Positions 10,175-47,416 are shown, numbered from the stretch's first letter. The stretch is 64,000 nt of DNA from Candidatus Bathyarchaeota archaeon (GCA_963769425.1 CAVYLP010000006.1:896001-960000); one strand, 5' to 3'. The notes: generated by a model from the sequence alone, not told the origin. Numbers and translations are program-made.

Positions 10175-10380
10175 CCCTCCAGGAATCGAAAGCTGAGGAA
10201 AGGCTGATCAAGTCATGCGCGTCCTGCGGTCACGTTAGGGTATGTGCAGTATTCAGGGCAGTCTCGCCTCTCCTATCTCAGAGCTGGGATGATAGCACCA
10301 GGCCAATTGAGCCCGATTGCCTCGCGATTATTTGCAGGGAGTTCGTCTCCGCTTCCGCACTTCAAATTCTAAATGAATGA
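10171..10380 (+). CDS. Small Cys-rich hypothetical protein
   Basis: TTG start overlapping the DUF932 stop; CASC..VC...C..IC. Confidence 0.55.
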   Translation: MTLQESKAEERLIKSCASCGHVRVCAVFRAVSPLLSQSWDDSTRPIEPDCLAIICREFVSASALQILNE

Positions 10381-10467
10381 TATAATGAGATTTACTAGAT
10401 CGAGGGATTCCGAACCCTCAAATTTCAGATATATTGTAAATCAAATATTATATAAAAAATCATAAAT

Positions 10468-13337: not shown

Positions 13338-13341
13338 AGAT

Positions 13342-14658: not shown

Positions 14659-16430
14659 TTTTCTAATCCCAGTTCTTTGAGAAGTTCCTGATTTTTATGT
14701 TCCAATTCAATAAATTCTTTTATAATTTCTTCAGTTTGTCTTAACGGTTGATACTTGTAAAAATATTGGGTAAAATTAATTTCATATCCAATTTCCTTTT
14801 GTAAAATTTTGTAAGGTTTTTCTATCTCTTTTTTTAGATAATCTTCGATGTTTTGTTTTAGAGGTACATATTCTTCATCTCTAGTCTCCTTTTCTTTATT
14901 GATTTTTATATCTTTTCCTCTAACCGTTTTTATAGTTGTTTCAAAAATCGGCTTTCCTCTTTCATCGAGTTCTCTTAATTCTAGATTAATTCGCGTATAT
15001 CCGAAGTCATTTGTATCAAAAATCTTAGATAACTCATTTTCATTAAAAGCGTGATAGATATTTGAAATTTTTATTATATGTTCTGATGATATTTCATTTC
15101 GTTTGTTACCTAGACTTTTCTTCATTTTCACAAAAAAATCAACTGCGTTTATTAGCTGCACTTTTCCTTTCCTTTCCTCTTCTTTAAGGTTACGAAGAAT
15201 CCAAATATATGTGGGTATTCCCGTGTTATAAAATAACTCAGGGGGTAAAGCAATAATTGCATCAAGCAGGTCATTTTCGAGTAGGTACTTCCTAAAATTA
15301 CTTTCTCCTGAACCTGCATCTCCTGTAAATAGAGGTGAAGCATTAAATACTATAGCTATCGAAGAACCGCCTTCACGAGGATGTTTCATTTTTGATAGCA
15401 TTTGCATTAGAAATAACGTGGAACCGTCCGATACTCGAGGAAGCATATCTTTATTGAATCTTCCTGTTGTATCTCTCTCAATTATTTGTTTGTCTTTTTT
15501 CCAATCTTTCCCAAAAGGTGGGTTCGATAACATATAGTCAAATTTTTCATCGGGTAATTGGTCATTTGTGAGAGTATTACCTTGCTTAATGTTCGTCATT
15601 CTTTCTCCTTTTAAAAGCATGTCAGAAGCGCAAATTGCGTAAGTTTCATCATTAATTTCTTGTCCATAAAGAACTATATTTGCTTCACATTTACTAAGAA
15701 TGTATTTTTTAGCCTCTGTTAGCATACCGCCAGTTCCACAAGCTGGATCGTAAATGCACTTCAACTCATTAGGCTTTATGGAGTCATCATTAATGACAAG
15801 TTCAACCATTAGTTTTATTATTTCTCTTGGTGTGAAATGCTGTCCTGCTTCCTCATTACTAGCCTCTGCAAATCTTCTAATAAGTTCTTCAAAAATATAA
15901 CCCATTTTTAAATTACTTACCACATTAGGTGAAAGGTCTAGGAGGGAATATTGCTTTACCAATTGATAGAGTAATTTATGCTTGTCCAAATCCGAAAGTT
16001 GTTCTTGTAGTTTAAAATTTTGCATTATTTCTTGGATGTTATTTGTATAACCATTAATATATGCTCGGAAATTGTCTTTTAATGCAGTTTCTTTTTCGGC
16101 TGATAGTTTTTTTAATGTAAACTCTGAAGTATTATCGAATTCAAGTGTTGCTGAAACCTTTTCGGATATTATTTTCGACCTTTCACTAGTACTCAATATA
16201 TCTAGTTGGGATTTATATTCTAAATATGCTTCCGCTCTTTTCTCAACAAGAACGCTGTCGATTCTTCGGAGAACAACAAAAGGAAGTATAATGTCTTGAT
16301 ATTGATGAGGTTTGTATGTATCTCTTAAAATTCTATCTGCAGACTCCCAAATAAACGCGACCTCGTTTGAGTTATTGATTTGTTCAGAAGTATTAAGGGG
16401 CCTGTTTTTTTTATTTTCAGAAACGGACAA
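14643..16430 (-). CDS. hsdM: Type I R-M N6-adenine methyltransferase subunit M
   Basis: GQHFTPRE, YDPACGTGGML (motif I), SNPPF (motif IV), LFYNTGIPTYIW. Confidence 0.95.
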   Translation of the reverse strand: MSVSENKKNRPLNTSEQINNSNEVAFIWESADRILRDTYKPHQYQDIILPFVVLRRIDSVLVEKRAEAYLEYKSQLDILSTSERSKIISEKVSATLEFDNTSEFTLKKLSAEKETALKDNFRAYINGYTNNIQEIMQNFKLQEQLSDLDKHKLLYQLVKQYSLLDLSPNVVSNLKMGYIFEELIRRFAEASNEEAGQHFTPREIIKLMVELVINDDSIKPNELKCIYDPACGTGGMLTEAKKYILSKCEANIVLYGQEINDETYAICASDMLLKGERMTNIKQGNTLTNDQLPDEKFDYMLSNPPFGKDWKKDKQIIERDTTGRFNKDMLPRVSDGSTLFLMQMLSKMKHPREGGSSIAIVFNASPLFTGDAGSGESNFRKYLLENDLLDAIIALPPELFYNTGIPTYIWILRNLKEEERKGKVQLINAVDFFVKMKKSLGNKRNEISSEHIIKISNIYHAFNENELSKIFDTNDFGYTRINLELRELDERGKPIFETTIKTVRGKDIKINKEKETRDEEYVPLKQNIEDYLKKEIEKPYKILQKEIGYEINFTQYFYKYQPLRQTEEIIKEFIELEHKNQELLKELGLEKWNQN

Positions 16431-36036: not shown

Positions 36037-36435
36037 ATGGCGTTGGCTGATAGGACCCCCAAGCTCTTAGACTACTTCGCAGGCGCGCTTCTTACAAACG
36101 GCCTAGCGAGCATGGTTATCTATCTAGCGCTATTCGAACCTTTCTTCCAATACCTTCTGATTCCTCTCTGGTGCCTCTCCGCAGGCATCGCCACGTATCT
36201 TGTCTGCATGAGAACTTCAAAGCAGCACCTAATAACAGGGGCGAAGACCGTCGTGATCTCCATAGTCATAGGCGTCTTCATGATCCCAACGCTAGAGGGT
36301 CTTGAGCTCGGTAGCCTTATTCTTATTATCGTTTGTTTCATCATCGGGGGTATCGGAGGTGCGTACTACGCCCTCCGCGAGCAGCTGAAGAGGAAGAAGC
36401 AGTCCGCCGTACCTCCGCCGACGGTTGAGCCTTAA
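36037..36435 (+). CDS. Hypothetical 4-TM membrane protein
   Basis: Hydrophobic helices, IGGIGGAY; similar layout to the divergent neighbour. Confidence 0.7.
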   Translation: MALADRTPKLLDYFAGALLTNGLASMVIYLALFEPFFQYLLIPLWCLSAGIATYLVCMRTSKQHLITGAKTVVISIVIGVFMIPTLEGLELGSLILIIVCFIIGGIGGAYYALREQLKRKKQSAVPPPTVEP

Positions 36436-36476: not shown

Positions 36477-36893
36477 TTGTACTACGACGTCGAGGTGACC
36501 CCTAAGGATGAGGAGGAGTTCATCGAGAAGGTAGCCCAGAAGATCCACGAGTACGAGATGGAGACCGTAGCCATCCTCCTGCTTGAGAGTAGTAAGCCAC
36601 TCGTTTGGGTCGGCGGGGAGATGGGCCGCTTCTTCATCAGCCCATTCGTGCCAATACTCAGCGAGGATTGGGGCGTCACCAGCGAGAAGTTCTTCCTCAT
36701 ATTCGAGAAGAGGGAGAACGTCGACAAGCTCCTAAAACGCCTCGAAGAACTTGCCCAAGCGGATGAAGCTAAGAGCAAGGAGGAGAAAAGGGCGGCAAAG
36801 GAAAAGAAGGAGGCGGAGAAGGCCGCCGAGGCCGATGGCGGCGAGCAGCCTCATGCAGAGAAGACTGGCCTGCGAAAGCGCCTCCACATCTAG
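36477..36893 (+). CDS. Conserved-looking hypothetical helical protein upstream of GlmL-like gene
   Basis: IEKVAQKI..AILLLESSKPL..SPFV..EKRENVDKLLKRLEEL. Confidence 0.75.
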   Translation: MYYDVEVTPKDEEEFIEKVAQKIHEYEMETVAILLLESSKPLVWVGGEMGRFFISPFVPILSEDWGVTSEKFFLIFEKRENVDKLLKRLEELAQADEAKSKEEKRAAKEKKEAEKAAEADGGEQPHAEKTGLRKRLHI

Positions 36894-36952
36894 ACACCTT
36901 TCCCTTTCAGAAACCTTTAATGCTGATGTATCCACAAGTTTTGAGATTCGCG

Positions 36953-38791
36953 ATGCCTACCCTCAAGAAACCCATCGAGGATATGCAGTACATTCTCGCA
37001 ACGGATGTCGGCAGCACCACGACGAAGGCCCGCTTCTTCCGCAAGGTAGACGGCGTGTGGCGCTTCTACGTCGCCGGCGAGGCACCCACCACCGTCGAGG
37101 CCCCCTACGAGGACGTCACACTCGGCGTACAGAACGCCGTGCGCGAGGTCGAGGAGCTAACCGGGCACAAGCTCCTGAACCCGGACGGGAGCGGCCTCAT
37201 CCTGCCCTACGATGGCAAACAGGGCGTCGACCTCTACTGCACGACGAGCAGCGCGGGTGGTGGCCTGCAGATGATGGTCGCCGGCCTCATCAAGAACATG
37301 ACCGCCGAGTCGGCGAACCGGGCAGCCCTCGGCGCTGGCGCCATAGTCATGGATGTCATCGCCCGAGACGACGGTAGGCAGCCCTACCAGAAGATACAGC
37401 GCATCAGGAACCTGCGCCCCGACATGATCCTCTTCGCGGGGGGCACCGACGGCGGAGCGGGGCAGCATGTCATGGAGATAGCGGAGCTGATCAAGGCGGC
37501 GGAGCCCAAGCCACGCCTCGGCGCGAGCTACTCCCTGCCCATCGTATACGCTGGCAACAAGACCCTCAGGGAGGACATATCCAAGCTCTTCAAGGGCGAG
37601 TTCGCGCTCACCTGCGTTGACAACATCAGGCCGACCCTCGAGGTCGAGAACACCGAGCCCGCGAGGCGCGCTGTACACGAGCTATTCATGGAGCACGTCA
37701 TGAGCCACGCCCCCGGCTACAACCGGCTTATGAACTGGACTGACATCCCCATCATGCCGACACCCGCCGGCGAGGGCATGGCTATGCAGCTAATCGCCGA
37801 AACCTTCAAGATCAACGTCCTCGGCGTCGGCCTCGGCGGAGCCACGACGAACGTCTACAGTGTCGTCGATGGGCGCTTCGTCCGAAGCGTTTCCGCCAAC
37901 CTCGGCATGAGCTACAGCGTCACCAACGTCATGAAGGAGGCGGGCATCCCCAACATCATGAGGTGGATGCCCTTCAAGATCGAGGAGGAGGAGGTCGCCA
38001 GCCGCCTGATGAATAAGATGATCAGGCCAACCACGATCCCCCAGACTCTTGAGGACCTCATAGTGGAGCACGCCGTGGCACGCGAGGCGCTGAGGCTCGG
38101 CCTCCAGCACCACCGCACGATCGCGACGCGCCTCAAGGGCGTCCAGACCCAGCGCACAATCAGCGACATGTTCGAGCAGGCCATCGAAGACAGCTACGTC
38201 AAGATGATGACCATCGACGTCATCGCGGGCACAGGCGGGCTACTCAGCCACGCCCCCCGCCGAGTACAGTCCATGCTCATACTCAGCGACGCATGGCTCC
38301 CAGAGGGAATCACAAGGATGTTCCAGGACTCCGTCTTCATGATGCCCCACCTTGGCGTCACGAGCACGGTCTACCGCGACGCCGCTTGGAGCATCTTCGA
38401 CAAGGACTGCCTCGTCAGGATAGGTACCAGCATCGCCGCCGCCGGCACTGGGAAGCTCGGCGACCACTGCATGACCGTAGAGCTGACGATGTCCGACGGC
38501 AAGGTCCAGAAGGAAGAGATGAACTTCGGTGACATCAGGCTGGTGCCCCTCGCGGAGGGGGTAGAGGCGAAGGCGGTCATCCACCCCGCAAAGGCATTCG
38601 ACGTAGGGGAGGGGCCGGGCAAGTCGAAGGAGGCTACAGTCATCGGAGGCGTCGCCGGTATATTGCTCGACGCCCGCGGTCGTCCGCTATACCTACCCGA
38701 AGACAACGCTCAGAGGATGAACCTGCTATACAAGTGGTTCACATCCCTCAAGATGTACCCCGAGGACCCCCTCAAGGAGCTGGTGAAGTAA
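36953..38791 (+). CDS. GlmL/MutL-type (glutamate mutase L family) ASKHA ATPase-like protein
   Basis: TDVGSTTTKA, SSAGGGL, GGTDGG, DNIRP, MPTP, GLGGATTNVYS, GTGGLLSH. Confidence 0.88.
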   Translation: MPTLKKPIEDMQYILATDVGSTTTKARFFRKVDGVWRFYVAGEAPTTVEAPYEDVTLGVQNAVREVEELTGHKLLNPDGSGLILPYDGKQGVDLYCTTSSAGGGLQMMVAGLIKNMTAESANRAALGAGAIVMDVIARDDGRQPYQKIQRIRNLRPDMILFAGGTDGGAGQHVMEIAELIKAAEPKPRLGASYSLPIVYAGNKTLREDISKLFKGEFALTCVDNIRPTLEVENTEPARRAVHELFMEHVMSHAPGYNRLMNWTDIPIMPTPAGEGMAMQLIAETFKINVLGVGLGGATTNVYSVVDGRFVRSVSANLGMSYSVTNVMKEAGIPNIMRWMPFKIEEEEVASRLMNKMIRPTTIPQTLEDLIVEHAVAREALRLGLQHHRTIATRLKGVQTQRTISDMFEQAIEDSYVKMMTIDVIAGTGGLLSHAPRRVQSMLILSDAWLPEGITRMFQDSVFMMPHLGVTSTVYRDAAWSIFDKDCLVRIGTSIAAAGTGKLGDHCMTVELTMSDGKVQKEEMNFGDIRLVPLAEGVEAKAVIHPAKAFDVGEGPGKSKEATVIGGVAGILLDARGRPLYLPEDNAQRMNLLYKWFTSLKMYPEDPLKELVK

Positions 38792-39973
38792 ATGTCAACA
38801 AGGAAACACGAAGCCCCGAAGCACGAGAAGAAGAAGGACGACAAGGAGAGCGGGGAGGCGCACGCCTACACGCCGGGCCTAAAGGTCAAGCGCTCCATGA
38901 CCATTGAGAAGCTGCGCAGACTACCCATTCCCGGTGAGGTCCTCCACAAAGTGGGGGACACAGTCAACTTCGACGCGAAGGTCGCCCGCACAGAGATCAG
39001 CGGTGAGCCGGAGATAGTGAAGGTGGCGATGACCCTAGGGATCGAGCCCGAGGATCTCCCCCGCTTCATGCTGAAGAAGACCGGGGACAAGGTGAAGGAG
39101 GGGGAGAGCATCGCCTTCTACTCTTCTCTCTTCGGCCTCTTGAAGAAGAGCGTCACGAGCCCGAGGGACGGGGTGATTGAGTCGATCTCGGAGGTGACTG
39201 GACAGGCGATCATAAGGGGGTCGCCCATCCCGGTTGAGGTCGATGCCTACTTGCCGGGTAAGATAGTCAACGTTATCCCTCGCGAGGGGGCCGTGGTTCA
39301 GACGCACGGCGCATTCATACAGGGAATCTTCGGCATCGGCGGCGAGACCCACGGCGAGATCAAGGTGGTCGTCGGGGAGAACTCGGACGAGATAACGTCG
39401 GAGAAGATAGACCCAGACTGCAAGGGGAAGGTCCTCATAGGAGGCTCCCTAGTTACTCTCGAGGCAATGAAGAAGGCGGCCCAGGTCGGCGCCGCAGCCC
39501 TCGTCGTTGGCGGCGTCCGCCACCAGGACTTGACCACATTCACAGGCCAGGAGATAGGCGTGGCGATCACAGGGCAGGAAGAGGTCGGCCTCACCCTCAT
39601 CATCACTGAGGGGTTCGGCAGGATGAACATGAACGCTGCCACCTTCAAGCTTCTCAAGAACTTCGAGGGCCGCCTCGCCTGCGTCAACGGCGCCACACAG
39701 ATCAGGGCGGGCGTCCTGAGGCCCGAGATAATCATCCCCCACGAGGAAACGGTAGAGGAGAAGGGCGACACCTTCGCGCTTGGCATGGTCCCCGGGACAC
39801 CCGTGAGGATCATCCGTCAGCCATACTTTGGGGCCATCGGCGTAGTGGACCATCTCCCGGTGGAGCTGCAGGCGATGGAGTCCGAGAGTATGGTTCGTGT
39901 CCTAATGGTGAAGTTAAGCGACGGCACGATAGCGACCGTCCCGAGGGCCAACGTAGAGATAATCGAGGAGTAA
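38792..39973 (+). CDS. Hypothetical GlmL-coupled protein (barrel-sandwich-hybrid-like repeats, C-terminal KOW-like)
   Basis: Starts immediately after the GlmL stop; KTGDKVKEGESIA..SPRDGVIESI; GTPVRIIRQPYFGAIGVV. Confidence 0.8.
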   Translation: MSTRKHEAPKHEKKKDDKESGEAHAYTPGLKVKRSMTIEKLRRLPIPGEVLHKVGDTVNFDAKVARTEISGEPEIVKVAMTLGIEPEDLPRFMLKKTGDKVKEGESIAFYSSLFGLLKKSVTSPRDGVIESISEVTGQAIIRGSPIPVEVDAYLPGKIVNVIPREGAVVQTHGAFIQGIFGIGGETHGEIKVVVGENSDEITSEKIDPDCKGKVLIGGSLVTLEAMKKAAQVGAAALVVGGVRHQDLTTFTGQEIGVAITGQEEVGLTLIITEGFGRMNMNAATFKLLKNFEGRLACVNGATQIRAGVLRPEIIIPHEETVEEKGDTFALGMVPGTPVRIIRQPYFGAIGVVDHLPVELQAMESESMVRVLMVKLSDGTIATVPRANVEIIEE

Positions 39974-40047
39974 GGCTCCTTGCAACCGTTGCTTTCCCGC
40001 TTCTATTTTTGGGAAAGTAATTAATCTCCATCGCCGAAGTTAGGGCC

Positions 40048-40620
40048 ATGAAGAAGTCACTTGGAGCCGGGACATTCGCGCTACCCTCGCCCGTCTGGGT
40101 CGTGGGCACATACGACGCCGCCGGGAAACCAAACCTCATGACCGCTGCCTGGGGCGGGATATGCAACTCACGCCCACCTTCGATCTACGTCAGCCTTCGC
40201 AAGGCTACCTATAGTCACGGGAACATTATGGCGACGGAGGGCCTACACTGTCAGCATTCCCTCGGAGAAGTATGTGAGGGAGGCGGACTGGATAGGGATC
40301 GCCACGGGCCGCGAGCGGATAAGTTCGCGACCGCCAAGCTCACCCCCGTCAAGGGATCGGCCGTCGACGCGCCCTACGTGGACGAGTTTCCAGTCGTGCT
40401 CGAATGCCGCGTCAAGGAGGTCTTCGAACTTGGCCTCCACACCCAGTTCGTCGGTGAGATAATGGACGTAAAGGCCGAGGAGAGTGTCCTCAACGCGAAG
40501 GGAGCGATAGACATCGAGAAGGTGAAGCCCATAATCTTCACCGCTAGCGCCGGCACCTACCACGGTGTAGGTAAGAAGCTGCAGGACGCCTTCACGACCC
40601 GGGAGATGAAGAAGGGCTCA
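40048..40620 (+). CDS. Flavin reductase-like (flavoredoxin) protein, compensating frameshifts
   Basis: PNLMTAAWGG, APYVDEFPVVLEC, HTQFVGEI; middle part (VSIPSEKYVREADWIGI) in another frame; 3' end uncertain. Confidence 0.82.
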
Positions 40621-43110
40621 GGCCCCACTAGCGCAGTAGTAGATAGCGTTGAAGAGCATCCTGAACGTGCCGCGGGCCTGGTTCCTGAAGCTAGGCGGGA
40701 ACCCGAAGAGGATCACCCTCCCCCTCCCAACTGTGTGGTCGGAGACCGCCGCGAGTCCCCTCAGCTGCTTCTCCCCGAGAATCCAGCCGCTGAGCAGCGG
40801 GTTCGCCTCCGGGTACTTCGCCACCTTATAGCCCTCCTTCACCTTGAAGGCGGGTCCTGAGATGAAGTAGACCGATGCCTCGCGTGGGTAGCCGAACGCG
40901 ACGGGGTGTGCCTCGTCGAGGGCGACCCTGAGGATGCTGCCGGGGATGTAGAACTCCTGCTCCTTCAGCCCCTCGAGCGGGTTCTCCGCGGCCACCATCA
41001 GGTCTTTGATGGCGTAGCTCGACGCCCTGTTGAGGGTGATTACGTTCCCCCCAGCGCCGAGGAAGTCGAGCACGGCCTTCGTGCCCTCCTCGCCGAGCCC
41101 GACCCTGTACATGGCCTCGTACCTGCTCGGGTTGGAGCCCTTGATCGCCTTCATCCCGTTCACGATCTGGTCCCTCGGGAGGTCTGGGAAGACCAGAACA
41201 TCGAATCTCTCCGCCAGTCCTCCCTGCCGGATATCCTGGGGGCTCAGCGACTCGAAGCCGAATCCGTACTCCTCGAGCACCATCCTGAGCCACGCCTCGT
41301 CCGGGTTGGGCAGCCACGCCCTGTAGACGCCTATCCTGGGTTTCACCACCTCGAAGGCGACGTCGGGGAGGTCTTCTACCCCGTGGAAGCTGACCCCGAG
41401 GCGTGTCGCCTCCTCCATCAACTTATCCGTGTCCTCGCCGGACTCCACGACGAAAGCCCCAGGCCTCAGCTCAACAGCCCCTGCCTCAACCCACCCCTGT
41501 GTTCTCCAGAGCTTGACCCCCTTGTGGAGGAACGTGTTAGCGACCTTCGTCGATGCGAGCAACTCCGACGGGAACATGTACCATTTGCTATTAGAGCCGT
41601 TGACGACCCCGATCGGCTTTCTGGGCTTCAGTAACTCCAGCTCACAATCGAATTTATCTTGAACTGAGACAACGTCGATCCCCATCTGTAGACCTAAGGT
41701 CTGGGCGGTGACGTCGTAGGGAACTTCAGGTGGGTCGCTAGGGTTCCTCCTCAGGTCTGGATAGACCTGCTTCTCCAGCATTGTCTTCGCGAACCGCCCA
41801 TAGGGCTGAGCGAGTGGGACGACAACACATCCCTTCCGGTACCTTATGCCGTCAGCGGTGAACGGCTCCAGCGCCTCATACAGCCTCACGTCACCCATCC
41901 TCAGGACCTCGAACAGCTCATAAGCCGCTCCCGGGTCCGCCTGCTCCTTAGGTATGATGAATGCGTAGGGACCATTCGATGGACTCAGCGCCCTCTTACC
42001 GATCTCCAGGCTGCCCCTCAGCCAGCGCTCCCTGTGCTTAGCAGCGTTACCGAGGAGCGCCATGGCTGCGGTGAACTCGTAGTCGATGATGTCTCGTAGG
42101 CTCCACCTCCCGCCGCCCCAGGGCATGGCGTGGTTCCACCTCACCTCACGCGGCTTGAAGCCCCTCTCCCCCTCGAGTTCTTCTGCCTTTACATCGACTG
42201 GGCTCGCGATGTCGGCGCTCGCGGCCTCGCTCAGGATGCGTATGCCGCCGTGATAGTGCTGGTAGGCCCTCGCGGGTGTCCATCCGTCGAACTCCCAGTG
42301 GGTGGTCACACCCGCCTTCCCCGAGGTCGTCAGGGCATCCGCCATCGTCAGTCCCATGAAGCTCGTACCGCTGACAATCACCGGGTCCACATTCGGATCA
42401 ATAGGATCGATGTAGGGGGGCACAAAGAGTCGCGGCCCCTTCTGCCCCATCTGGTGGATGTCATATACAATCTGGGGATGCCAGACGTTGTGGACCTTCT
42501 CGACGGTCAGCCTCGTCTCCTTGAGGCTGAACATGAACCAGTCCCTGTTGTTGTCGTGGCCCGCGTACCTGTGGTAGACCATGGGCGGTGCCGTGCCCTC
42601 ATACCTAGTCCCTAGGTACCGCTTGTACCACTCGCAGACCAGTCTGTTTCCATCGGGATTCAGTGAGGGAATGAGGAGGAGAACGGTGTTCTGCAGAATC
42701 TCCCTGACATCCGGGTCCTCCCCCGTTGCGAGCCGGTGGAGGAGTTCCATGCTCATCTGGCTCCCACCGACCTCCGTCGAGTGGATACTGCAAGTGATCA
42801 ACACGATCGTCTTCCCACGCCTGACGAGATCATCTGCCTCCTTCACCGTGACCCCCTCCGGGTCACAGAGTCTCCCTTGGACCTCCTGAAGCTCCTCAAG
42901 TCTCCTGAGGTTCTCCGGAGAAGACACGGTCGCGAGGATGAATGGGTTCCCTTCCGTCGTCTTCCCGAGCTCCTCAAGCCTCACCCTATCAGAGGCTTCG
43001 ACTACCTTCAAGAAGTAGGCCACGATCTCTGGCCAATCCGCGAGTCTACGATCCTCCCCGACTTTAAAGCCAAGATGCTCCTCAGGAGATGGGACGCCCT
43101 TCGTAGCCAT
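40618..43110 (-). CDS. M14-family zinc metallopeptidase with C-terminal GATase-like domain
   Basis: IHSTE, NPDG, HDNNRDW, DIHQMG, PYDVTAQTL; no signal peptide. Confidence 0.9.
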   Translation of the reverse strand: MATKGVPSPEEHLGFKVGEDRRLADWPEIVAYFLKVVEASDRVRLEELGKTTEGNPFILATVSSPENLRRLEELQEVQGRLCDPEGVTVKEADDLVRRGKTIVLITCSIHSTEVGGSQMSMELLHRLATGEDPDVREILQNTVLLLIPSLNPDGNRLVCEWYKRYLGTRYEGTAPPMVYHRYAGHDNNRDWFMFSLKETRLTVEKVHNVWHPQIVYDIHQMGQKGPRLFVPPYIDPIDPNVDPVIVSGTSFMGLTMADALTTSGKAGVTTHWEFDGWTPARAYQHYHGGIRILSEAASADIASPVDVKAEELEGERGFKPREVRWNHAMPWGGGRWSLRDIIDYEFTAAMALLGNAAKHRERWLRGSLEIGKRALSPSNGPYAFIIPKEQADPGAAYELFEVLRMGDVRLYEALEPFTADGIRYRKGCVVVPLAQPYGRFAKTMLEKQVYPDLRRNPSDPPEVPYDVTAQTLGLQMGIDVVSVQDKFDCELELLKPRKPIGVVNGSNSKWYMFPSELLASTKVANTFLHKGVKLWRTQGWVEAGAVELRPGAFVVESGEDTDKLMEEATRLGVSFHGVEDLPDVAFEVVKPRIGVYRAWLPNPDEAWLRMVLEEYGFGFESLSPQDIRQGGLAERFDVLVFPDLPRDQIVNGMKAIKGSNPSRYEAMYRVGLGEEGTKAVLDFLGAGGNVITLNRASSYAIKDLMVAAENPLEGLKEQEFYIPGSILRVALDEAHPVAFGYPREASVYFISGPAFKVKEGYKVAKYPEANPLLSGWILGEKQLRGLAAVSDHTVGRGRVILFGFPPSFRNQARGTFRMLFNAIYYCASGA

Positions 43111-43337
43111 GATTAAGACAAGTCAGTCCCGCGCATTAAAGCTGAGTGAAGATACATAAAAAAACTGGAAAAGAAGATCGGAAAAAGAACTCAGTGCGAA
43201 TAGTTTCATTCTAACATAATTATTGGATAGACAAACGTGAAGAAAAAACTGAATAGTAATTACTATTGGTGATCACAAAAGGATAAGAAAATCCATTTTT
43301 CCACCACTTTTTAACTAGAAAATTTGATTTTTAACTG

Positions 43338-43354
43338 CGAAGTATTAAATATTA
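43338..43354 (+). promoter_or_regulatory. Putative BRE/TATA for the membrane operon
   Basis: GCGAAG-TATTAAATA about 170 bp upstream of the start codon. Confidence 0.5.
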
Positions 43355-43376
43355 ATCTGGATTACTGCTCTATCTA

Positions 43377-43482
43377 ACCGGAGAAAGGGTTTGGTCTCTC
43401 TGATCCAAATGGGGTTACATTAAACCCATGGAAAACTCGATGCGAAAGCACGAGTGATTGAGGATGCGAACCCTCTATCGGT
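43377..43482 (+). ncRNA. Candidate structured 5' leader RNA
   Basis: Hand-folded: closing stems ACCGG/TCGGT and AGGGTTTG/CGAACCCT, plus hairpins ATGGG/CCCAT and ACTCG-a-TGC-GAAA-GCA-CGAGT. Confidence 0.45.
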
Positions 43483-43515
43483 AAAGAAAAATGAAATGAA
43501 ACGGAGGAAACGAGA

Positions 43516-44307
43516 ATGGGATTACTAGCAGACGGCAGAATAGATTCGCTAATCTTGTTGCTGGTCTCGTTCGCCCTGTTCTACATCTTCATGCAGCAAG
43601 CCAAGGGGGGTGCAAAGTTCAAGGTGAGAACCTTCCCCGCGGTCACCGCCATACCCGAAGCGGTTGGCAGGGCGGCGGAGATGGGCAAACCAATCTACTA
43701 CTCAACAGGGCTTGGCATGCAGACTCTGAACAACCAGCTCAACGGTCCGCAGACCCTAGCGGGAATAAGCATACTTGCCTACGTCACCAGACTGAGCGCA
43801 AGGAGCGGTGTCAAGGTAAGCTACTTCACACCCATCGCGGATTCGCTTCCCCTCGTTGAGGAGACGATGAGGACTGCATACTTGTCTGAGGGAAAACCAG
43901 ACGAATTTGACGCTACTGCACAGATCAATTTCCAACAAGACCAATCCCCATATCTAACCGCCTCATTAGGCTGGATCCAGCGCGAGAAACCTGCCTCAAG
44001 TTTCCTGATCGGAGGATACTATTACGAATCCGTTGTACTGGGGGAGGCTGGTAACACAATCGGTGCAATGCAAATCTCCGGTACAGCAAACACAAGCCAG
44101 ATACCCTTCCTTGTAGCGACCTGCGATTACACCCTCATCATGGAGGAGCTCTACGCTGCAAGCGCTGAGATATCTGGAAACACCGATGTACTAGGTAGCC
44201 TGCGCGGAGAAGACATCCTCAAATTTGTCGTGCTGGCACTGCTCGCTATAGGATTTATTATCGCCTTCACGGGAAGCGCCTTCCTGGTTAACCTTCTAAA
44301 GGTGTAA
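43516..44307 (+). CDS. DUF6754-like membrane-anchored protein
   Basis: AIPEAVGRAAEMGKP, YYESVVLGEAG, QISGT..QIPFLVATCDYTLIMEELYAASA; TM at both ends. Confidence 0.8.
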   Translation: MGLLADGRIDSLILLLVSFALFYIFMQQAKGGAKFKVRTFPAVTAIPEAVGRAAEMGKPIYYSTGLGMQTLNNQLNGPQTLAGISILAYVTRLSARSGVKVSYFTPIADSLPLVEETMRTAYLSEGKPDEFDATAQINFQQDQSPYLTASLGWIQREKPASSFLIGGYYYESVVLGEAGNTIGAMQISGTANTSQIPFLVATCDYTLIMEELYAASAEISGNTDVLGSLRGEDILKFVVLALLAIGFIIAFTGSAFLVNLLKV

Positions 44308-44313
44308 TGAAAT

Positions 44314-44961
44314 ATGTCTCAAATATACAAACGCGAGTTGGTCTTCGTCATCGCAGCGATATCCGCCATAATAGCGATGGTAGCGTACTACTTCACCGGC
44401 ATAGGTGCAGCAGGAACCATAGCTAACCAGCTCTACACCTGGGCCCTAATTGTCCAATTAATGGCAATAGGTCTGGGTGCAGTAAACATGGTTCAGGTCC
44501 ACTACAGAAATGTCCAAAGGAGAACCAAGGGCCTCTGGTACAACAGTGCCTGGTTCCTGGTTTTCTTTGCCATCCTGATGGTCTTCGGCCTAGTAAAGAT
44601 CGCGAGTGGTCAGGAACCCTACCTATACACATGGGTATTTACTAACGTCTACACAAGCCTGAGTTCAACCCTGTATGCTATTACTGGTTTTTACATCTTC
44701 TCAGCAGCCTACAGGGCTTTCCGTGCCAGAAACATCGATGCTACACTTCTCTTAGTCGCAGGCGTATTTGTGATGCTTGCGAACGCTCCAATTGGTGAGG
44801 TCATATGGTCGGGATTCCCCTCAATCGGGAACTGGTTAAACAATGCCGGAGAAATCCCCGCGATGAGGACCTTCCTCATCACTGGTGCTCTTGGTGTTTT
44901 AGCGTTCGGGTTTAGAGCCCTCCTAGGAAAGGAGAGAGGGTTCTACTCGGGGGTGGAGTGA
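44314..44961 (+). CDS. Hypothetical polytopic membrane protein (operon gene 2)
   Basis: About 6 TM; FYIFSAAYRAFRARN, LLGKER. Confidence 0.8.
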   Translation: MSQIYKRELVFVIAAISAIIAMVAYYFTGIGAAGTIANQLYTWALIVQLMAIGLGAVNMVQVHYRNVQRRTKGLWYNSAWFLVFFAILMVFGLVKIASGQEPYLYTWVFTNVYTSLSSTLYAITGFYIFSAAYRAFRARNIDATLLLVAGVFVMLANAPIGEVIWSGFPSIGNWLNNAGEIPAMRTFLITGALGVLAFGFRALLGKERGFYSGVE

Positions 44962-44962
44962 T

Positions 44963-45799
44963 ATGAGCGACAAATCTATCTGGGACCGGATACAGAACGC
45001 CGATAGGAGGATCTTTTACTGGATCCTATTCATCGGCTTAATGATTCCCTACATCAGCCCCCTTGGTCTGCCCGTCGCCGTCACTACCTCGACCCAAGCA
45101 TACTACGATAAACTAAATTCCCTTCCAGCCGGCTCGGTCGTAGTACTTAGCATCAACTCGGGTGTAAGCGCGTGGGGAGACTGCCTGCCCGCTATGACTG
45201 CGACAGTCAAGCTCCTAGTACAAAAGAACATCAAAATCATTGTCTGGGGCATGGGTCAGGTTGACATCGATCTCACGTGGGCGAAGATAGAATCACAGGT
45301 ACCCGCCCTCGGTACATCGTACAAATACGGAACTGATTATGTCTACTTCGGCTACCTTCCCACCCAAGAGACCACTGTCTCCTTACTAAGGGATAACATC
45401 CGAGGCGTATTCAGCGAAGACAAGAACGGCACGCCAATCGGCAACATTCCCATGATGGCAAACGTCAACGGCGCCAAGGACATCGCGGCTGTATGTTCGA
45501 GTGACACCGGTGATGTACAATCCTACTATGTAAAGCTCTGGAAGAACGGCCCAACCAATACCCCCGTCGCTGAACTCGGTATAGCCATGAACAAGTCCGG
45601 TGACATGCCCTACTTCCTCTCCGGAGACGAGTTCGGTCTCGTAGCTGGCTCACGAGGCGGAGCAGAGCTCGAGAAGTTGATCGGTGCCCTTGGAGACGGA
45701 ACGACGACAATGGACGCCATCAACGTCTCACACATACTCATTGTTTTAGCAATCATACTTGCGAACGTGGGATACTTCGCAATGAGGGGGAAGAAGTAA
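44963..45799 (+). CDS. Hypothetical membrane-anchored protein (operon gene 3)
   Basis: DRRIFYW N-terminal TM, YGTDYVYFGY, GLVAGSRGGAELEKL, MDA..SH C-terminal TM. Confidence 0.8.
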   Translation: MSDKSIWDRIQNADRRIFYWILFIGLMIPYISPLGLPVAVTTSTQAYYDKLNSLPAGSVVVLSINSGVSAWGDCLPAMTATVKLLVQKNIKIIVWGMGQVDIDLTWAKIESQVPALGTSYKYGTDYVYFGYLPTQETTVSLLRDNIRGVFSEDKNGTPIGNIPMMANVNGAKDIAAVCSSDTGDVQSYYVKLWKNGPTNTPVAELGIAMNKSGDMPYFLSGDEFGLVAGSRGGAELEKLIGALGDGTTTMDAINVSHILIVLAIILANVGYFAMRGKK

Positions 45800-45800
45800 A

Positions 45801-46454
45801 ATGATTGTGAATGTTGCAGCGTATCCGACTGGCATCTACGACATATTAGGCCTATGGGCGGGTTTGTTCCTAATGCTCGCCATCTACAGCTACCCACTCT
45901 TCAAGGAGAACCCGATATACAGGTTCGCAGAGCACACCTTCACCGCGTCGGCGATGGCCATTGGAATAATAGTGACCCTCACGGCCCTACAGGGCACCGC
46001 CTGGATACCACTCGTCAATGGTAACTACATGATTATCATAGGCATCATCCTGGGCCTAGTCATGTACACCCTGTTGATACCGAGCAAGAGGTACCTGAGC
46101 CGATACCCGATAGCGATACTCGTCGGCTCCACCATCGGACTAAGCCTAGCCAGCGGGATCCAGCCGAACATCCTTAACCAGATGATCTCCACGATCGCTG
46201 TGCCAGCTTCCAACTCTCAGATGATCGACTGGTTCAGTTTCATCTGGATCGCTGTAGGCACAATCTGCGCGACCACATACTTCCTACTGACATACGAGCA
46301 TAGCGGCGTGATCAAGCCGGTGACCGTCATAGGGCGCTACTTCATAATGATAGGTCTCGGCGCCTACTTCGGCAACACAGTGCTCTTTAGATTCAGCATG
46401 CTGGCGACGAGGGCTCAGTTCCTGTTACAGGTTCTGAAGATCATCCCGATGTAA
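45801..46454 (+). CDS. Hypothetical polytopic membrane protein (operon gene 4)
   Basis: About 6 TM; KENPIYRFAEH, SRYPIA, GRYFIMIGLGAYFGNTV..R. Confidence 0.8.
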   Translation: MIVNVAAYPTGIYDILGLWAGLFLMLAIYSYPLFKENPIYRFAEHTFTASAMAIGIIVTLTALQGTAWIPLVNGNYMIIIGIILGLVMYTLLIPSKRYLSRYPIAILVGSTIGLSLASGIQPNILNQMISTIAVPASNSQMIDWFSFIWIAVGTICATTYFLLTYEHSGVIKPVTVIGRYFIMIGLGAYFGNTVLFRFSMLATRAQFLLQVLKIIPM

Positions 46455-46552: not shown

Positions 46553-47416
46553 TTGTTGAATCCATCTGAAATCCACGATCTCCTCAACGAATCCCGGTTG
46601 TTGAGAAGGGTCGCGGTTGAGAACCTAATGCTCGTAAGCCTCGGGCTCCGCCCCTGTAGCCAGACGACGATCCCCGCCGAGCTCCCCAGCGGGCCTTTGA
46701 TGGGCGAAACGATAGACGAGCGTTTCAAACCTAAGATGGAAAAACTCAGGTTGATTCGGGATCAGAAGGCGAAGATCAGGGAGATCGGGGCCATGAGGAA
46801 GGGAATGGCCTCCGCCTTCGATGAGCTCGTCGAGGACTCCATGGAGTGTAAGTTGCTATCAGATTGGGCGAAGAAGCTGAGTCTCAAGGTTGACCAGGTC
46901 GAGGTGCGCCCCACAGTCCACGAACTCTACCTCTACAGGAACCGGGAGACGTTGAGGGAGCTTCAGAGGCTCATTCAGGAGAGGGGGAAGCTCAGGGTGG
47001 AGGCCGTGAGAAAGCCGGACCCATCAAAGGGACAGCTTCAGTTCATCTACCCTGAGGAGTTCAACGGCGACTGGATAAAGAGGATGGGGCACCTCCTCGG
47101 CTACCCAGACTGCTGCGTCGAAAGGTACGCCTCGGATAGGGAGCATGGTGTGAACGCGGAGGCTAGGGCGGCGACACAACTAAAGGAACTTGACATCCCC
47201 CCCGACCAACGTGTCTACTTCGTCAGCTATTTTCTCCCATGCAGTCCCACCTGTCAGAAAGCGAGAGAGATGGGGGAACTCTACAACCAAAACCTATTGG
47301 AGGCGCTCCCTGAGGCTGGTAAGGTCTACGAGTCCATAACGGCGGAGAACATGGATCGCGTGCGAAGACAACCCGAGATAATCAACGACTACCTGAGCAA
47401 GCTGAGAGGGGTCTAG
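46553..47416 (+). CDS. DUF483-like hypothetical protein
   Basis: GHLLGYPDCCVERY and FLPCSPTC motifs. Confidence 0.65.
   Translation: MLNPSEIHDLLNESRLLRRVAVENLMLVSLGLRPCSQTTIPAELPSGPLMGETIDERFKPKMEKLRLIRDQKAKIREIGAMRKGMASAFDELVEDSMECKLLSDWAKKLSLKVDQVEVRPTVHELYLYRNRETLRELQRLIQERGKLRVEAVRKPDPSKGQLQFIYPEEFNGDWIKRMGHLLGYPDCCVERYASDREHGVNAEARAATQLKELDIPPDQRVYFVSYFLPCSPTCQKAREMGELYNQNLLEALPEAGKVYESITAENMDRVRRQPEIINDYLSKLRGV

What the first reader, a model, noticed from the sequence alone, without database searches (positions are those of the whole stretch)
36477..46454. Candidate undescribed ASKHA-ATPase-coupled membrane complex (GlmL-like + partner + DUF6754-like four-gene operon) around a cytoplasmic peptidase
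Seen: a co-oriented small protein, a GlmL-like ATPase and an abutting 393-aa partner. About 3.5 kb away is a tightly spaced four-gene membrane operon with an A-B-A'-B' layout (two TM-domain-TM proteins alternating with two ~6-TM proteins), divergent from a signal-less M14 peptidase. Established: GlmL/MutL is known as the accessory/reactivating factor of B12 glutamate and ornithine mutases. No mutase or B12 gene occurs in this window, and there is no ABC ATPase or binding protein. From recall (unverified), these families co-occur in other anaerobic peptide fermenters. Inference: a novel transporter or membrane machine, perhaps for peptide/amino-acid uptake, powered or gated by an actin-fold ATPase.
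Basis: partly seen in the sequence, partly recalled or inferred. Interest (0 to 1): 0.88.

Follow-up and report, generated by a model that had tools for sequence, protein, structure and literature searches.

The report
Actin-fold ATPase tied to unknown membrane module
A long form of the GlmL/MutL actin-fold ATPase, its three-domain partner protein and a four-gene membrane module of unknown families form a conserved gene system in many bacterial and archaeal phyla, which most likely takes up peptide-like nutrients and appears to be undescribed.

Summary
All genes lie at the stated coordinates, and the link between the two halves is real.

- **Gene order.** A paralogous locus on another contig, and the orthologous locus of a sister species, carry ATPase, partner, A, B, A', B' without a gap. 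The flavin reductase and M14 peptidase are therefore a lineage-specific insert.
- **Spread.** The same order recurs in Zixibacteria, Fermentibacteria, Bacillota, Ignavibacteria and other phyla.
- **Co-occurrence.** Long-form MutL and DUF6754 occur together in 3 of 151 Thermoproteota genomes and 6 of 121 Bacillota genomes. Long-form MutL was never found without DUF6754.
- **Contrast with GlmL.** The short ~460-aa form sits beside B12 mutases and is separated from the long form by a 100% supported branch.
- **ATPase and partner.** They occur fused in about 50 protein clusters.
- **Membrane proteins.** A', B and B' match no Pfam family. None of the four has a sequence relative in the PDB, and the B model matches no solved fold.
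- **Neighbours.** Flanking genes are amidohydrolases, peptidases, glycine-cleavage genes and TonB-dependent receptors.

The best reading is a new uptake system with shared ATPase units. Transport and physical coupling are inferred, not shown.

The parts
36037..36435 (+). 132-aa membrane protein (about 4 TM) at the head of the cluster
   Evidence: Hydropathy. Homologue in the same position in L016/L019 and other Bathyarchaeia loci (11 ORFs in 9 of 80 loci). Bacterial loci carry a 140-170-aa membrane protein in the same position (22 of 80 loci). No Pfam family was found for the bacterial form; the window's own copy was scanned only against PADLOC.
36477..36893 (+). 138-aa small soluble protein with a conserved LES.KP core and a Lys/Glu-rich tail
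   Evidence: No Pfam family. Homologues lie directly upstream of MutL in bacterial and archaeal loci: 36 ORFs by HMM in the 80 loci. Conserved core seen in 37 aligned sequences; no TM segment.
36920..38791 (+). Long-form GlmL/MutL-family ASKHA ATPase (623 aa) with a C-terminal extension of about 125 aa
   Evidence: PF13941 at 390.5 bits over residues 25-497. Below all three NCBIfam cut-offs: GlmL 207.9 against 475, Or-4 215 against 600, glmL_fam 145.8 against 204. Nucleotide-binding motifs conserved in 61 sequences. Split from the mutase-linked short forms by a 100% SH-aLRT branch.
38792..39973 (+). 393-aa partner: barrel-sandwich hybrid domain, swivelling beta/beta/alpha domain and KOW domain
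   Evidence: AF2 model with pLDDT 89.9. Fold matches per domain. Fused to MutL in about 50 protein clusters. MutL lies directly upstream in 52 of the 65 loci with enough flank.
40048..40860 (+). Flavin reductase-like gene: lineage-specific insert, not a core part
   Evidence: PF01613 at 80 bits. Absent from the orthologous locus L016/L019 and present in L020 as a 201-aa protein. The window copy reads on for 243 nt into the M14 gene.
40618..43110 (-). 830-aa M14-family peptidase without a signal peptide: lineage-specific insert
   Evidence: PF00246 at 71.7 bits. A 67% identical orthologue sits in the same place in L020 and is absent from L016/L019. A MutL-to-DUF6754 spacing of about 5.1 kb is also seen in G007, G011 and G017.
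43516..44307 (+). A: DUF6754 protein, TM then an alpha/beta domain of about 200 aa (inferred cytoplasmic) then TM
   Evidence: PF20539 at 234 bits. Hydropathy. Seven invariant residues (E55, G65, A82, G126, G166, D204, G246) across 43 sequences. Bacterial forms add an N-terminal signal peptide and fn3 or beta-propeller domains.
44314..44961 (+). B: 215-aa polytopic membrane protein with six helices
   Evidence: No Pfam family. No PDB sequence relative. AF2 model pLDDT 83.1. No fold match: Foldseek best E 0.9; VIA best Z 7.3 over 57 residues. S130, R134 and R137 (in a conserved SAAYRAFRAR stretch) are >=90% conserved and E207 near the C-terminus is invariant.
44963..45799 (+). A': 278-aa protein, TM then an alpha/beta domain (inferred extracytoplasmic) then TM
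   Evidence: No Pfam family. No PDB relative. No named Atlas look-alike. Topology inferred from the charge distribution in the alignment.
45801..46454 (+). B': 217-aa polytopic membrane protein
   Evidence: No Pfam family. No PDB relative. Always last in the four-gene order, in 43 module loci of 7 genomes.
46553..47416 (+). 287-aa DUF483-like Cys-rich protein, a recurrent accessory gene
   Evidence: PF04467 at 38.6 bits. Homologues lie right after B' or after the partner in 6 of 80 loci, in Bathyarchaeia and Bacillota.

Best explanation
The region encodes one copy of a widespread, undescribed multi-gene system. Its membrane part is a four-protein module in fixed order. A has a cytoplasmic alpha/beta domain held by two TM helices. 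B has six helices. A' has an extracytoplasmic alpha/beta domain held by two TM helices. B' is polytopic. I read this module as a permease that imports peptide-like or amino-acid-derived nutrients. A' (and, in bacteria, the fn3 or beta-propeller N-terminus of A) would act as the outward-facing receptor. Genomes hold 1-11 modules, each next to different catabolic enzymes. The soluble part is a long-form GlmL/MutL actin-fold ATPase bound to a partner made of barrel-sandwich, swivelling and KOW domains, with a small helper protein. I propose that this unit is a shared ATP-driven energiser or gate for the modules. It would work as a shared ATPase serves several ABC or ECF permeases, but with an actin-fold motor in place of a P-loop one. 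Shown here: the gene linkage, the phyletic co-occurrence, the ATPase-partner fusions, the intact ATPase motifs, and the lack of known relatives for the membrane proteins. Inferred: that the four proteins form one complex, the direction and substrate of transport, and any physical or energetic coupling to the ATPase.
For: - **Contiguity.** In the own genome C3:72142-65967 carries MutL(603)-partner(398)-A-B-A'-B' without a gap. The orthologous locus L016 carries TM132-small-MutL-partner-A-B-A'-B'.
- **Proximity in relatives.** Among 41 relatives, 25 of 35 MutL matches of at least 330 bits have DUF6754 within 8 kb on the same contig.
- **Partner loci from more than 12 phyla.** Of 35 loci with at least 8 kb on both sides, 16 of the 28 with MutL upstream carry all four module genes. 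None of the 7 without MutL does.
- **Co-occurrence, Thermoproteota.** In 151 genomes, strong MutL is found in 3 and DUF6754 in the same 3, plus one fragment at a contig end.
- **Co-occurrence, Bacillota.** In 121 genomes, long-form MutL is found in exactly the 6 genomes with strong DUF6754 matches.
- **Unlinked copies.** 5 of 5 genomes whose MutL-partner locus lacks a module have 6-10 DUF6754 genes elsewhere. 4 of 5 genomes with a lone partner have one MutL elsewhere.
- **Fusions.** 50 of the 51 longer relatives of the partner carry PF13941 (two checked).
- **ATPase motifs.** Conserved in 61 sequences.
- **KOW domain.** The module-less 'clade 2' partner lacks only the KOW domain.
- **Module order.** A-B-A'-B' is kept in nearly all of the 43 module loci (40 fetched, 3 own) of 7 genomes; a few are partial or cut at contig ends.
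- **Neighbours of modules.** 136 of 160 flanking ORFs were scanned: Amidohydro_3 10, Amidohydro_1 9, DUF885 5, Peptidase_M28 4, 2-Hacid_dh 4.
- **Neighbours of MutL-partner blocks.** 148 of 173 flanking ORFs from 54 loci were scanned: glycine-cleavage P 7, amidohydrolases 6, TonB-dependent receptor 4, ExbB 4, Peptidase_S58 2, M55 2. No B12 family appears among the 25 listed.
- **Own genome.** No SBP_bac_5 match.
Against: - Nothing shows transport.
- B matches no transporter fold, so a permease role rests on topology and context alone. A, A' and B' were not modelled.
- No natural fusion joins the soluble unit to a membrane protein. The one candidate, P0432, looks like read-through into A's own signal peptide. 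The best 120 of 164 longer A relatives show only fn3 or PQQ-type additions.
- Some lineages (WOR-3, Poribacteria, Stahlbacteria) keep the partner far from MutL and from any module, so the partner may have a life of its own.
- 12 of 28 well-flanked MutL-partner loci have no module within about 10 kb.
- The neighbour tallies count related genomes more than once and have no background control.
- The own genome has 47 ABC ATPase domain matches, so it is not short of conventional transporters.
- Topologies are inferred by eye from charge distribution.
Confidence: 0.45

Rival explanations
1. Pathway coupling without physical coupling. The four-gene modules are secondary (ion-driven) importers. MutL-partner is a soluble ATP-dependent enzyme or chaperone that acts on the imported compounds or on an enzyme that degrades them. 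It would resemble the ATP-dependent hydantoinase/oxoprolinase ASKHA enzymes, or the B12-enzyme reactivases.
For: Weak Hydantoinase_A/Hydant_A_N signals appear in the fused forms. The partner's swivelling domain is of the kind used in phosphotransfer enzymes and in RraA-like enzymes (Z 8.7-9.6). Glycerol dehydratase reactivase also combines an actin/Hsp70-like ATPase with a swivelling domain (passages of PMC7674605). Neighbours include amidohydrolases, creatininase and S-Me-THD-like proteins. The partner occurs away from modules in some phyla.
Against: One or two MutL-partner units accompany 4-10 modules that sit beside different enzymes. That fits a general service better than one substrate-specific step. 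Long-form MutL was never found in a genome without DUF6754 in the two phylum samples. No invariant His or Cys that could carry a phosphoryl group or a cluster is among the partner's conserved residues. The reactivase alpha chain did not appear in the three top-50 fold lists.
Confidence: 0.25
2. The module is not an importer. It is an envelope machine for export, secretion, or assembly or modification of surface polymers or lipids, or a signalling device. MutL-partner would be its cytoplasmic assembly chaperone or motor.
For: Bacterial A proteins carry extracytoplasmic fn3 and beta-propeller domains. In two WOR-3-like loci the lone partner follows a 931-952-aa polytopic protein whose family I did not test. 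Glycosyltransferase family 2 proteins are among the module neighbours (3 of 136). B has unusually long helices of 33-39 residues. Actin-fold ATPases serve pilus and secretion machines (PilM, GspL: recalled, not tested).
Against: There are many module copies per small genome. Neighbours are mainly catabolic hydrolases, glycine cleavage genes and TonB-dependent receptors, which are uptake partners. No pilin, secretin or polymerase-like gene is among the recurrent neighbours.
Confidence: 0.12
3. An Rnf/Nqr-like ion-translocating redox complex. On this reading the partner is an RnfC/NqrA-like peripheral subunit and B/B' play the RnfA/E role.
For: The partner's barrel-sandwich domain is closest to RnfC and NqrA N-termini (Z 7.7-7.8 over 59-64 residues). 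Some homologues pass Pfam RnfC_N. B and B' are about 215 aa with about 6 TM, the size of RnfA/E (size recalled).
Against: Only the small N-terminal domain matches. There are no Fe-S or flavin motifs and no conserved Cys in MutL or the partner. B and B' homologues hit no Rnf-Nqr family at E up to 1. The B model matches no Rnf or Nqr chain. No oxidoreductase subunit is conserved in the cluster.
Confidence: 0.03
4. A classical GlmL-type accessory or reactivating protein of a B12-dependent mutase that happens to lie near membrane genes.
For: It belongs to Pfam MutL. NCBI names the fused forms 'glutamate mutase L'.
Against: No mutase E subunit was found in the own genome, which is 91% complete. The aminomutase search also found nothing, but its control rang in no genome. 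Scores fall below all three NCBIfam cut-offs. In the control, 19 short-form loci have B12-binding in 18 and Met_asp_mut_E in 12 of 114 flanking proteins. The long-form flanks list no B12 family among the top 25. The two forms are split by a 100% supported long branch.
Confidence: 0.02

Closest known systems
GlmL (methylaspartate mutase accessory protein) and Or-4 of the ornithine fermentation cluster (Pfam MutL, PF13941)
   Same: Same Pfam family and ASKHA fold class, with conserved phosphate-binding motifs.
   Different: The long form is 600-655 aa against about 460 aa. It falls below the NCBIfam equivalog and subfamily cut-offs. It always has a BSH-swivel-KOW partner, sometimes fused. It is never next to B12 mutases but next to DUF6754 modules. 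It forms a separate clade.
Glycerol/diol dehydratase reactivase (alpha subunit: actin/Hsp70-like ATPase plus swivelling domain; beta-subunit swap mechanism)
   Same: Both combine an actin-fold ATPase with a swivelling beta/beta/alpha domain, here on a separate or fused partner. This gives a precedent for ATP-driven prying of a partner protein (passages of PMC7674605).
   Different: No sequence or fold match to the reactivase was seen in my lists. There is no B12 enzyme in the context. The likeness is an analogy recalled from domain names, not a tested relationship.
ABC and ECF importers with a shared ATPase module
   Same: The logic is the same: several membrane permease modules per genome, an outward-facing alpha/beta domain, and a smaller number of cytoplasmic ATPase units, some encoded apart from the permeases.
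   Different: There is no P-loop ATPase in the cluster. There is no Pfam ABC or ECF membrane family in A, A', B or B'. The B fold is unmatched.
Phosphohistidine swivelling domains of PEP-utilising enzymes and rifampin phosphotransferase; RraA-like proteins
   Same: These are the best fold matches of partner residues about 150-320: Enzyme I Z 9.6, RraA Z 8.8-9.6, rifampin phosphotransferase Z 8.7-9.2.
   Different: No histidine is among the invariant or nearly invariant residues of the partner family. The Z values are near the level that the tool calls common.
RnfC / NqrA N-terminal barrel-sandwich hybrid domain
   Same: Fold match of partner residues 70-144 (Z 7.7-7.8). Pfam RnfC_N is found on some homologues.
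   Different: The rest of RnfC/NqrA is missing, and no redox cofactor motifs are present.

Membership tests
Pfam MutL (PF13941) | Score over the gathering cut-off of 27 bits across the whole model | tested here: met
   390.5 bits, model positions 1-450 of 450, residues 25-497.
NCBIfam accessory_GlmL (NF040745, equivalog) | Score of at least 475 bits | tested here: not met
   207.9 bits.
NCBIfam ornith_Or-4 (NF040744, equivalog) | Score of at least 600 bits | tested here: not met
   215 bits.
NCBIfam glmL_fam (TIGR01319, subfamily) | Score of at least 204.05 bits | tested here: not met
   145.8 bits.
GlmL-type B12 mutase accessory protein (functional class) | Encoded beside, or in a genome with, glmS/glmE or oraS/oraE-type B12 mutases | tested here: not met
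   No Met_asp_mut_E or Lys-AminoMut_A in the own genome; the latter control rang nowhere. Long-form flanks list no B12 family, while short-form flanks do.
Pfam DUF6754 (PF20539), protein A | Score over the 27-bit cut-off | tested here: met
   234.4 bits, model positions 10-253 of 257. The own genome has four copies.
ABC transporter | ABC_tran (P-loop) ATPase encoded with the permease | tested here: not met
   None of the 47 ABC_tran matches of the genome lies in the window's coordinates. None is among the conserved cluster genes.
ABC transporter | Membrane domains of a known ABC permease family or fold | tested here: inconclusive
   No Pfam hit for 10 homologues each of A', B and B' at E up to 1, apart from single chance-level hits. 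The B model has no match. A, A' and B' were not modelled.
Rnf/Nqr complex | RnfA/E- or NqrD/E-type membrane subunits and cofactor-bearing subunits | tested here: inconclusive
   No Rnf-Nqr Pfam hit for B or B' and no such chain among the fold matches of B. Only the partner's small N-terminal domain resembles RnfC/NqrA. There are no conserved Cys.
PEP-utilising enzyme mobile (phosphohistidine) domain | Swivelling beta/beta/alpha fold | tested here: met
   Enzyme I Z 9.6 (rmsd 2.5, 107 aligned); rifampin phosphotransferase Z 8.7-9.2.
PEP-utilising enzyme mobile (phosphohistidine) domain | Conserved catalytic histidine | tested here: not met
   No His among the 20 invariant or 39 nearly invariant residues of 62 partner sequences.
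Anti-phage defence systems (PADLOC) | Any component matching a PADLOC model | tested here: not met
   0 families for all 9 proteins at E up to 0.01.

The most novel reading that the evidence does not exclude
This would be a third kind of primary active transporter beside P-loop (ABC/ECF) and P-type systems. An actin-fold (ASKHA) ATPase, clamped to a barrel-sandwich/swivel/KOW adaptor, serves as a shared motor for many interchangeable four-protein permease modules built from protein families with no known relatives. The system is spread across at least a dozen mostly uncultured bacterial and archaeal phyla, where it may be a main route of peptide and amino-acid uptake.
Probability: 0.3. Interest if true: 0.95.

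Novelty: categorically new. Interest (0 to 1): 0.82.

Why it matters
If the reading holds, it adds a new energy-coupling principle to membrane transport: an actin-fold ATPase in place of a P-loop one. It would give a function to a Pfam DUF, to three protein families that have no family assignment at all, and to the long-form 'glutamate mutase L' genes that pipelines now misname.

It would also matter for sediment and subsurface ecology. Carriers hold up to about ten module copies in genomes of only 1.4-3.4 Mb, in lineages such as Bathyarchaeia, Methanomethylicia, Zixibacteria and Fermentibacteria. These groups are thought to live on detrital protein (recalled), and how they take up substrates is poorly known (recalled).

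Even if the ATPase turns out not to be the motor, three things stand. The strict co-occurrence defines a new functional system. The long-form and short-form MutL split is clear. The annotation of these genes as B12-mutase accessory proteins should be corrected.

Tried and rejected
- **Complex prediction.** A + B + partner (residues 28-393), with the partner scored, gave ipSAE 0.01 in both runs. The verdict was 'no answer', and I do not count it either way.
- **Expression.** No RNA holder was listed. There were two DNA runs with small shares (0.05-0.06) which I did not lay.
- **Atlas.** For the partner it returned only its own unnamed or Biotin_lipoyl/RnfC_N-tagged bacterial clusters. For A', restricted to named clusters, there was no usable hit.
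- **A/A' and B/B' duplication.** hhalign on 10-row alignments gave E 0.007 (probability 5%) and E 0.18. On 38-43-row alignments it gave E 0.056 and 0.11. I rejected this as evidence of homology.
- **Apparent partner-DUF6754 fusion.** P0432 (707 aa, one sequence on one contig) reads straight from the partner's C-terminus into A's own signal-peptide-like start and breaks off inside DUF6754. I judged it a read-through or assembly artefact, not a Rosetta stone.
- **Reactivase analogy.** Glycerol/diol dehydratase reactivase chains did not appear in the top-50 lists of three fold searches with the partner model. The analogy stays untested.
- **PDB by sequence.** Nothing below E 0.03 for MutL or the partner profile, and nothing below E 0.2 for the A, A', B, B' profiles.
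- **Defence system.** No PADLOC hit.
  - 'DUF6754', 'PF13941' and 'TIGR01319' each returned 0 papers.
  - 'GlmL' returned 869 papers, mostly unrelated word matches (listing only).
  - 'glutamate mutase' + 'GlmL' returned 1 paper on mesaconase (listing only).
  - 'DUF483' returned only DUF483x families (listing).
  - 'Bathyarchaeota' + 'MutL' returned 6 papers, none on this by title (listing).
  - 'ASKHA/reactivase/swiveling domain' returned 2 papers. I read passages of one, PMC7674605.
  - The four-term search on actin-like ATPase gave nothing relevant by title.
  - 'glutamate mutase L' returned 1 unrelated paper.
  - My statement that the system is undescribed rests on these searches only. 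Subscription journals and supplementary files were not searchable.
- **Not done.** The tree used the quick method with SH-aLRT only, and the tool warned about long short-form branches.

Full report
**1. What is in the window**

| Coordinates (+ strand unless noted) | Length | Identification |
|---|---|---|
| 36477-36893 | 138 aa | small protein, no Pfam family |
| 36920-38791 | 623 aa | Pfam MutL/GlmL family, 390.5 bits over residues 25-497 |
| 38792-39973 | 393 aa | partner; start abuts the MutL stop; weak Biotin_lipoyl-type match |
| 40048-40860 | 270 aa | flavin reductase-like ORF |
| 43110-40618 (minus) | 830 aa | M14 peptidase |
| 43516-44307 | 263 aa | DUF6754 (234 bits), called A here |
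| 44314-44961 | 215 aa | B, no family |
| 44963-45799 | 278 aa | A', no family |
| 45801-46454 | 217 aa | B', no family |

The four membrane genes are separated by gaps of 6, 1 and 1 bases. Hydropathy gives one TM at each end of A and A', and several TM segments in B and B'. Names given by other sources to close homologues place the organism in the Bathyarchaeia.

**2. The two halves belong together**

- The own genome (2.55 Mb, 91% complete) has two MutL genes and four DUF6754 genes.
- On contig C3 the second MutL (603 aa) is followed directly by a partner (398 aa) and an A-B-A'-B' module, all on one strand.
- The other two modules stand without MutL.
- Each position of the module is orthologous across the four copies (27-41% identity). 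A/A' and B/B' show no similarity.
- In a sister species the orthologous locus (MutL 89% identical) reads 4-TM protein, small protein, MutL, partner, A, B, A', B' without interruption.
- The flavin reductase and M14 peptidase are therefore an insert. The same insert is present in another Bathyarchaeota MAG, L020, with M14 67% identical. Three further genomes of the genus show the same spacing of about 5.1 kb.

**3. Linkage and co-occurrence beyond this genome**

*Relatives.* Among 41 relatives, MutL is found in 30 and DUF6754 in 30. Both are found in 28 and neither in 9. Two genomes have MutL only (84% and 64% complete) and two have DUF6754 only (68% and 62% complete). Of 35 MutL matches of at least 330 bits, 25 have DUF6754 within 8 kb on the same contig. 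Of 12 lower-scoring matches (255-330 bits, a second clade), none does.

*Partner loci.* A scan of species-representative genomes with the partner profile found 570 relatives. The best 80 loci come from:
- archaea: Bathyarchaeia, Methanomethylicia, Culexarchaeia;
- bacteria: Zixibacteria, Bacillota, Ignavibacteria, WOR-3, Fermentibacteria, Eisenbacteria, Poribacteria, Stahlbacteria, Hydrothermota and others.

HMM labelling shows the recurrent order small, MutL, partner, then one to three A-B-A'-B' modules. Of the 65 loci with at least 2.5 kb upstream, 52 have MutL directly upstream of the partner. Of the 35 loci with at least 8 kb on both sides, 16 carry all four module genes. All 16 are among the 28 with MutL, and none is among the 7 without it.

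*Unlinked copies.* Five of five genomes whose MutL-partner locus lacks a module carry 6-10 DUF6754 genes elsewhere. Four of five genomes with a lone partner have one MutL elsewhere.

*Phylum samples.*

| Sample | Genomes | Long-form / strong MutL | DUF6754 |
|---|---|---|---|
| Thermoproteota | 151 | 3 (>390 bits) | the same 3, plus one fragment at a contig end |
| Bacillota | 121 | 6 (open frames 584-655 aa) | the same 6 strongly, plus one weak partial hit (88.6 bits) in a genome with no long-form MutL |

In the Bacillota sample MutL of any form occurs in 45 genomes.

**4. This is not the mutase-linked GlmL**

- The window protein falls below all three NCBIfam cut-offs: GlmL 207.9 against 475, Or-4 215 against 600, glmL_fam 145.8 against 204.
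- As a positive control I fetched 20 short-form loci from the Bacillota sample; 19 had a 450-487-aa MutL ORF. Their 114 flanking proteins include B12-binding (18), Met_asp_mut_E (12), methylaspartate ammonia-lyase (10), OAM_alpha (3) and Lys-AminoMut_A (3).
- The same tally on 148 of 173 ORFs flanking 54 long-form blocks lists no B12 family among its top 25.
- A quick maximum-likelihood tree of 83 proteins splits the 19 short forms from the 61 long forms plus 3 clade-2 proteins by a branch with 100% SH-aLRT support. The tool's warning about long short-form branches applies. The long forms have very short branches, which indicates strong conservation.
- A third type, a 1233-aa Bacillota protein, starts with what by eye is a B12-binding (DxHxxG-like) motif, not tested against Pfam, and has its MutL region at 691-976.

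**5. The soluble unit**

MutL and the partner are one functional unit. Fifty of the 51 longer relatives of the partner carry PF13941, and two were checked directly. The partner family is large: 2,404 clusters at 50% identity with E up to 0.001.

The partner's AF2 model (pLDDT 89.9) has three domains:
- a barrel-sandwich hybrid domain at 70-144, best matched by RnfC and NqrA N-termini (Z 7.7-7.8);
- a swivelling beta/beta/alpha domain at about 150-320, matched by Enzyme I (Z 9.6), RraA (8.8-9.6), rifampin phosphotransferase (8.7-9.2) and the aconitase X small subunit (8.1);
- a KOW domain at 329-393.

No histidine or cysteine is among the partner's conserved residues. MutL keeps its nucleotide-binding motifs in 61 bacterial and archaeal sequences and has no conserved Cys cluster.

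The second Bathyarchaeial clade never lies near a module. Its phosphate-1 motif is degenerate, and its partner stops exactly before the KOW domain. This makes KOW a candidate docking element, which is an inference.

**6. The membrane module**

- Ten homologues each of A', B and B' hit no Pfam family.
- Profiles of all four proteins find nothing in the PDB by sequence.
- The B model (pLDDT 83.1, six long helices) has no fold match. Foldseek's best E is 0.9. The wide VIA search gives no Z of 8 or more, and its best (7.3) covers only a 57-residue hairpin.
- From the charge distribution in the alignments I infer that A has its alpha/beta domain in the cytoplasm and A' has its domain outside.
- Consistent with this, bacterial A proteins begin with a signal-peptide-like segment and carry extra fn3 or beta-propeller domains.
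- The A-B-A'-B' order is kept in nearly all of the 43 module loci of 7 genomes; a few are partial or cut at contig ends.

**7. What it may carry**

In the own genome each of the four modules lies near a hydrolase: M14; an M29-like peptidase and Amidohydro_3; Amidohydro_1; creatininase and Amidohydro_1.

| Tally | ORFs scanned | Leading families |
|---|---|---|
| Module flanks | 136 of 160 | Amidohydro_3 (10), Amidohydro_1 (9), DUF885 (5), Peptidase_M28 (4), 2-hydroxyacid dehydrogenases (4) |
| Long-form MutL-partner block flanks | 148 of 173 | glycine-cleavage P protein (7), amidohydrolases (6), TonB-dependent receptors (4, directly downstream of B'), ExbB (4), Peptidase_S58 (2), Peptidase_M55 (2) |

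The own genome has no family-5 peptide-binding protein, although it has 47 ABC ATPase domain matches. This points to uptake of peptide-like or amino-acid-derived compounds. The counts include related genomes and have no background control.

**8. Mechanism proposed, and its status**

I propose that A-B-A'-B' is a permease, with A' (and the bacterial N-terminus of A) as receptor. MutL-partner, helped by the small protein, would be a shared ATP-driven energiser or gate acting on the cytoplasmic domain of A or the conserved tail of B.

The precedent for an actin-fold ATPase with a swivelling domain that pries a partner protein open is the glycerol/diol dehydratase reactivase (passages of PMC7674605). 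That is an analogy only.

- **Shown:** linkage, co-occurrence, the fusion of MutL with the partner, and intact ATPase motifs.
- **Not shown:** complex formation, transport, direction of transport, substrate and coupling.

The main rival is pathway-level coupling: a soluble ATP-dependent enzyme or chaperone together with secondary transporters. An envelope or secretion machine is a second rival. The Rnf-like and B12-reactivase readings are improbable.

**9. Novelty**

Searches for DUF6754, PF13941 and TIGR01319 found no paper, and the other literature searches found nothing on this system. Within what I could search, the system is undescribed. Its membrane proteins have no known relatives, and no known transport class uses an ASKHA ATPase (the last point is from recall).

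Noticed in passing
window 10001-16000: G+C falls to 0.32-0.39 against about 0.5-0.6 in the rest of the window. This may be a foreign or mobile island.
   Followed up: no
window 40048-40860: The flavin reductase ORF overlaps the 3' end of the convergent M14 gene by 243 nt. Its orthologue in L020 is 201 aa, so the window copy has a C-terminal read-on of about 80 residues.
   Followed up: partly
window 46553-47416; L020:17618-18475, L042:6724-7656, L032, L035, L046, L062: A DUF483-like Cys-rich protein recurs right after B' (Bathyarchaeia) or right after the partner (Bacillota). It may be a further component.
   Followed up: partly
L014:9178-11860, L017:8958-11565, L018:7492-10135: A second Bathyarchaeial MutL clade (575-596 aa) has a degenerate phosphate-1 motif and a partner (293-301 aa) that lacks the KOW domain. 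It has no module nearby, and its role is unknown.
   Followed up: partly
L139:7929-11630 (minus strand): A 1233-aa Bacillota protein has a B12-binding-like N-terminus (by eye, not tested against Pfam) and a MutL region at residues 691-976. This is a third, B12-linked architecture of the family. Similar frames of about 1240 aa occur in two more genomes.
   Followed up: partly
L029, L030, L050, L077, L131: Zixibacteria and Ignavibacteria carry two or three tandem A-B-A'-B' modules, directly behind a MutL-partner pair in L029, L030, L050 and L077; in L131 (Ignavibacteria) no MutL or partner lies in the fetched stretch.
   Followed up: no
L052:14712-17513, L058:14853-17723, L081:14741-17503, L079:15382-18084: TonB-dependent outer-membrane receptors with a CarboxypepD_reg domain lie just downstream of B' in four bacterial loci. 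ExbB-type genes are also among the flanks.
   Followed up: partly
L078:5980-7422, L080:783-1880, L079:4227-4610 and others: Glycine-cleavage genes (P, T, H) lie directly upstream of the cluster in about 8-11 of the 80 loci.
   Followed up: partly
L039:2657-3454 and 9 more loci: In Zixibacteria and Ignavibacteria a family-less protein of about 265 aa with a signal-peptide-like start is inserted between MutL and the partner.
   Followed up: no
G000:C6:416506-423091 (L008) and G000:C3:62784-64554 (L007): Three tandem aldehyde:ferredoxin oxidoreductase-sized ORFs (one confirmed by Pfam) precede one module. Two adjacent DUF4438 genes lie near the C3 locus.
   Followed up: no
L045:7216-10011, L049:7137-9995: In two WOR-3-like MAGs the lone partner gene directly follows a 931-952-aa polytopic membrane protein. 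I did not test its family.
   Followed up: no
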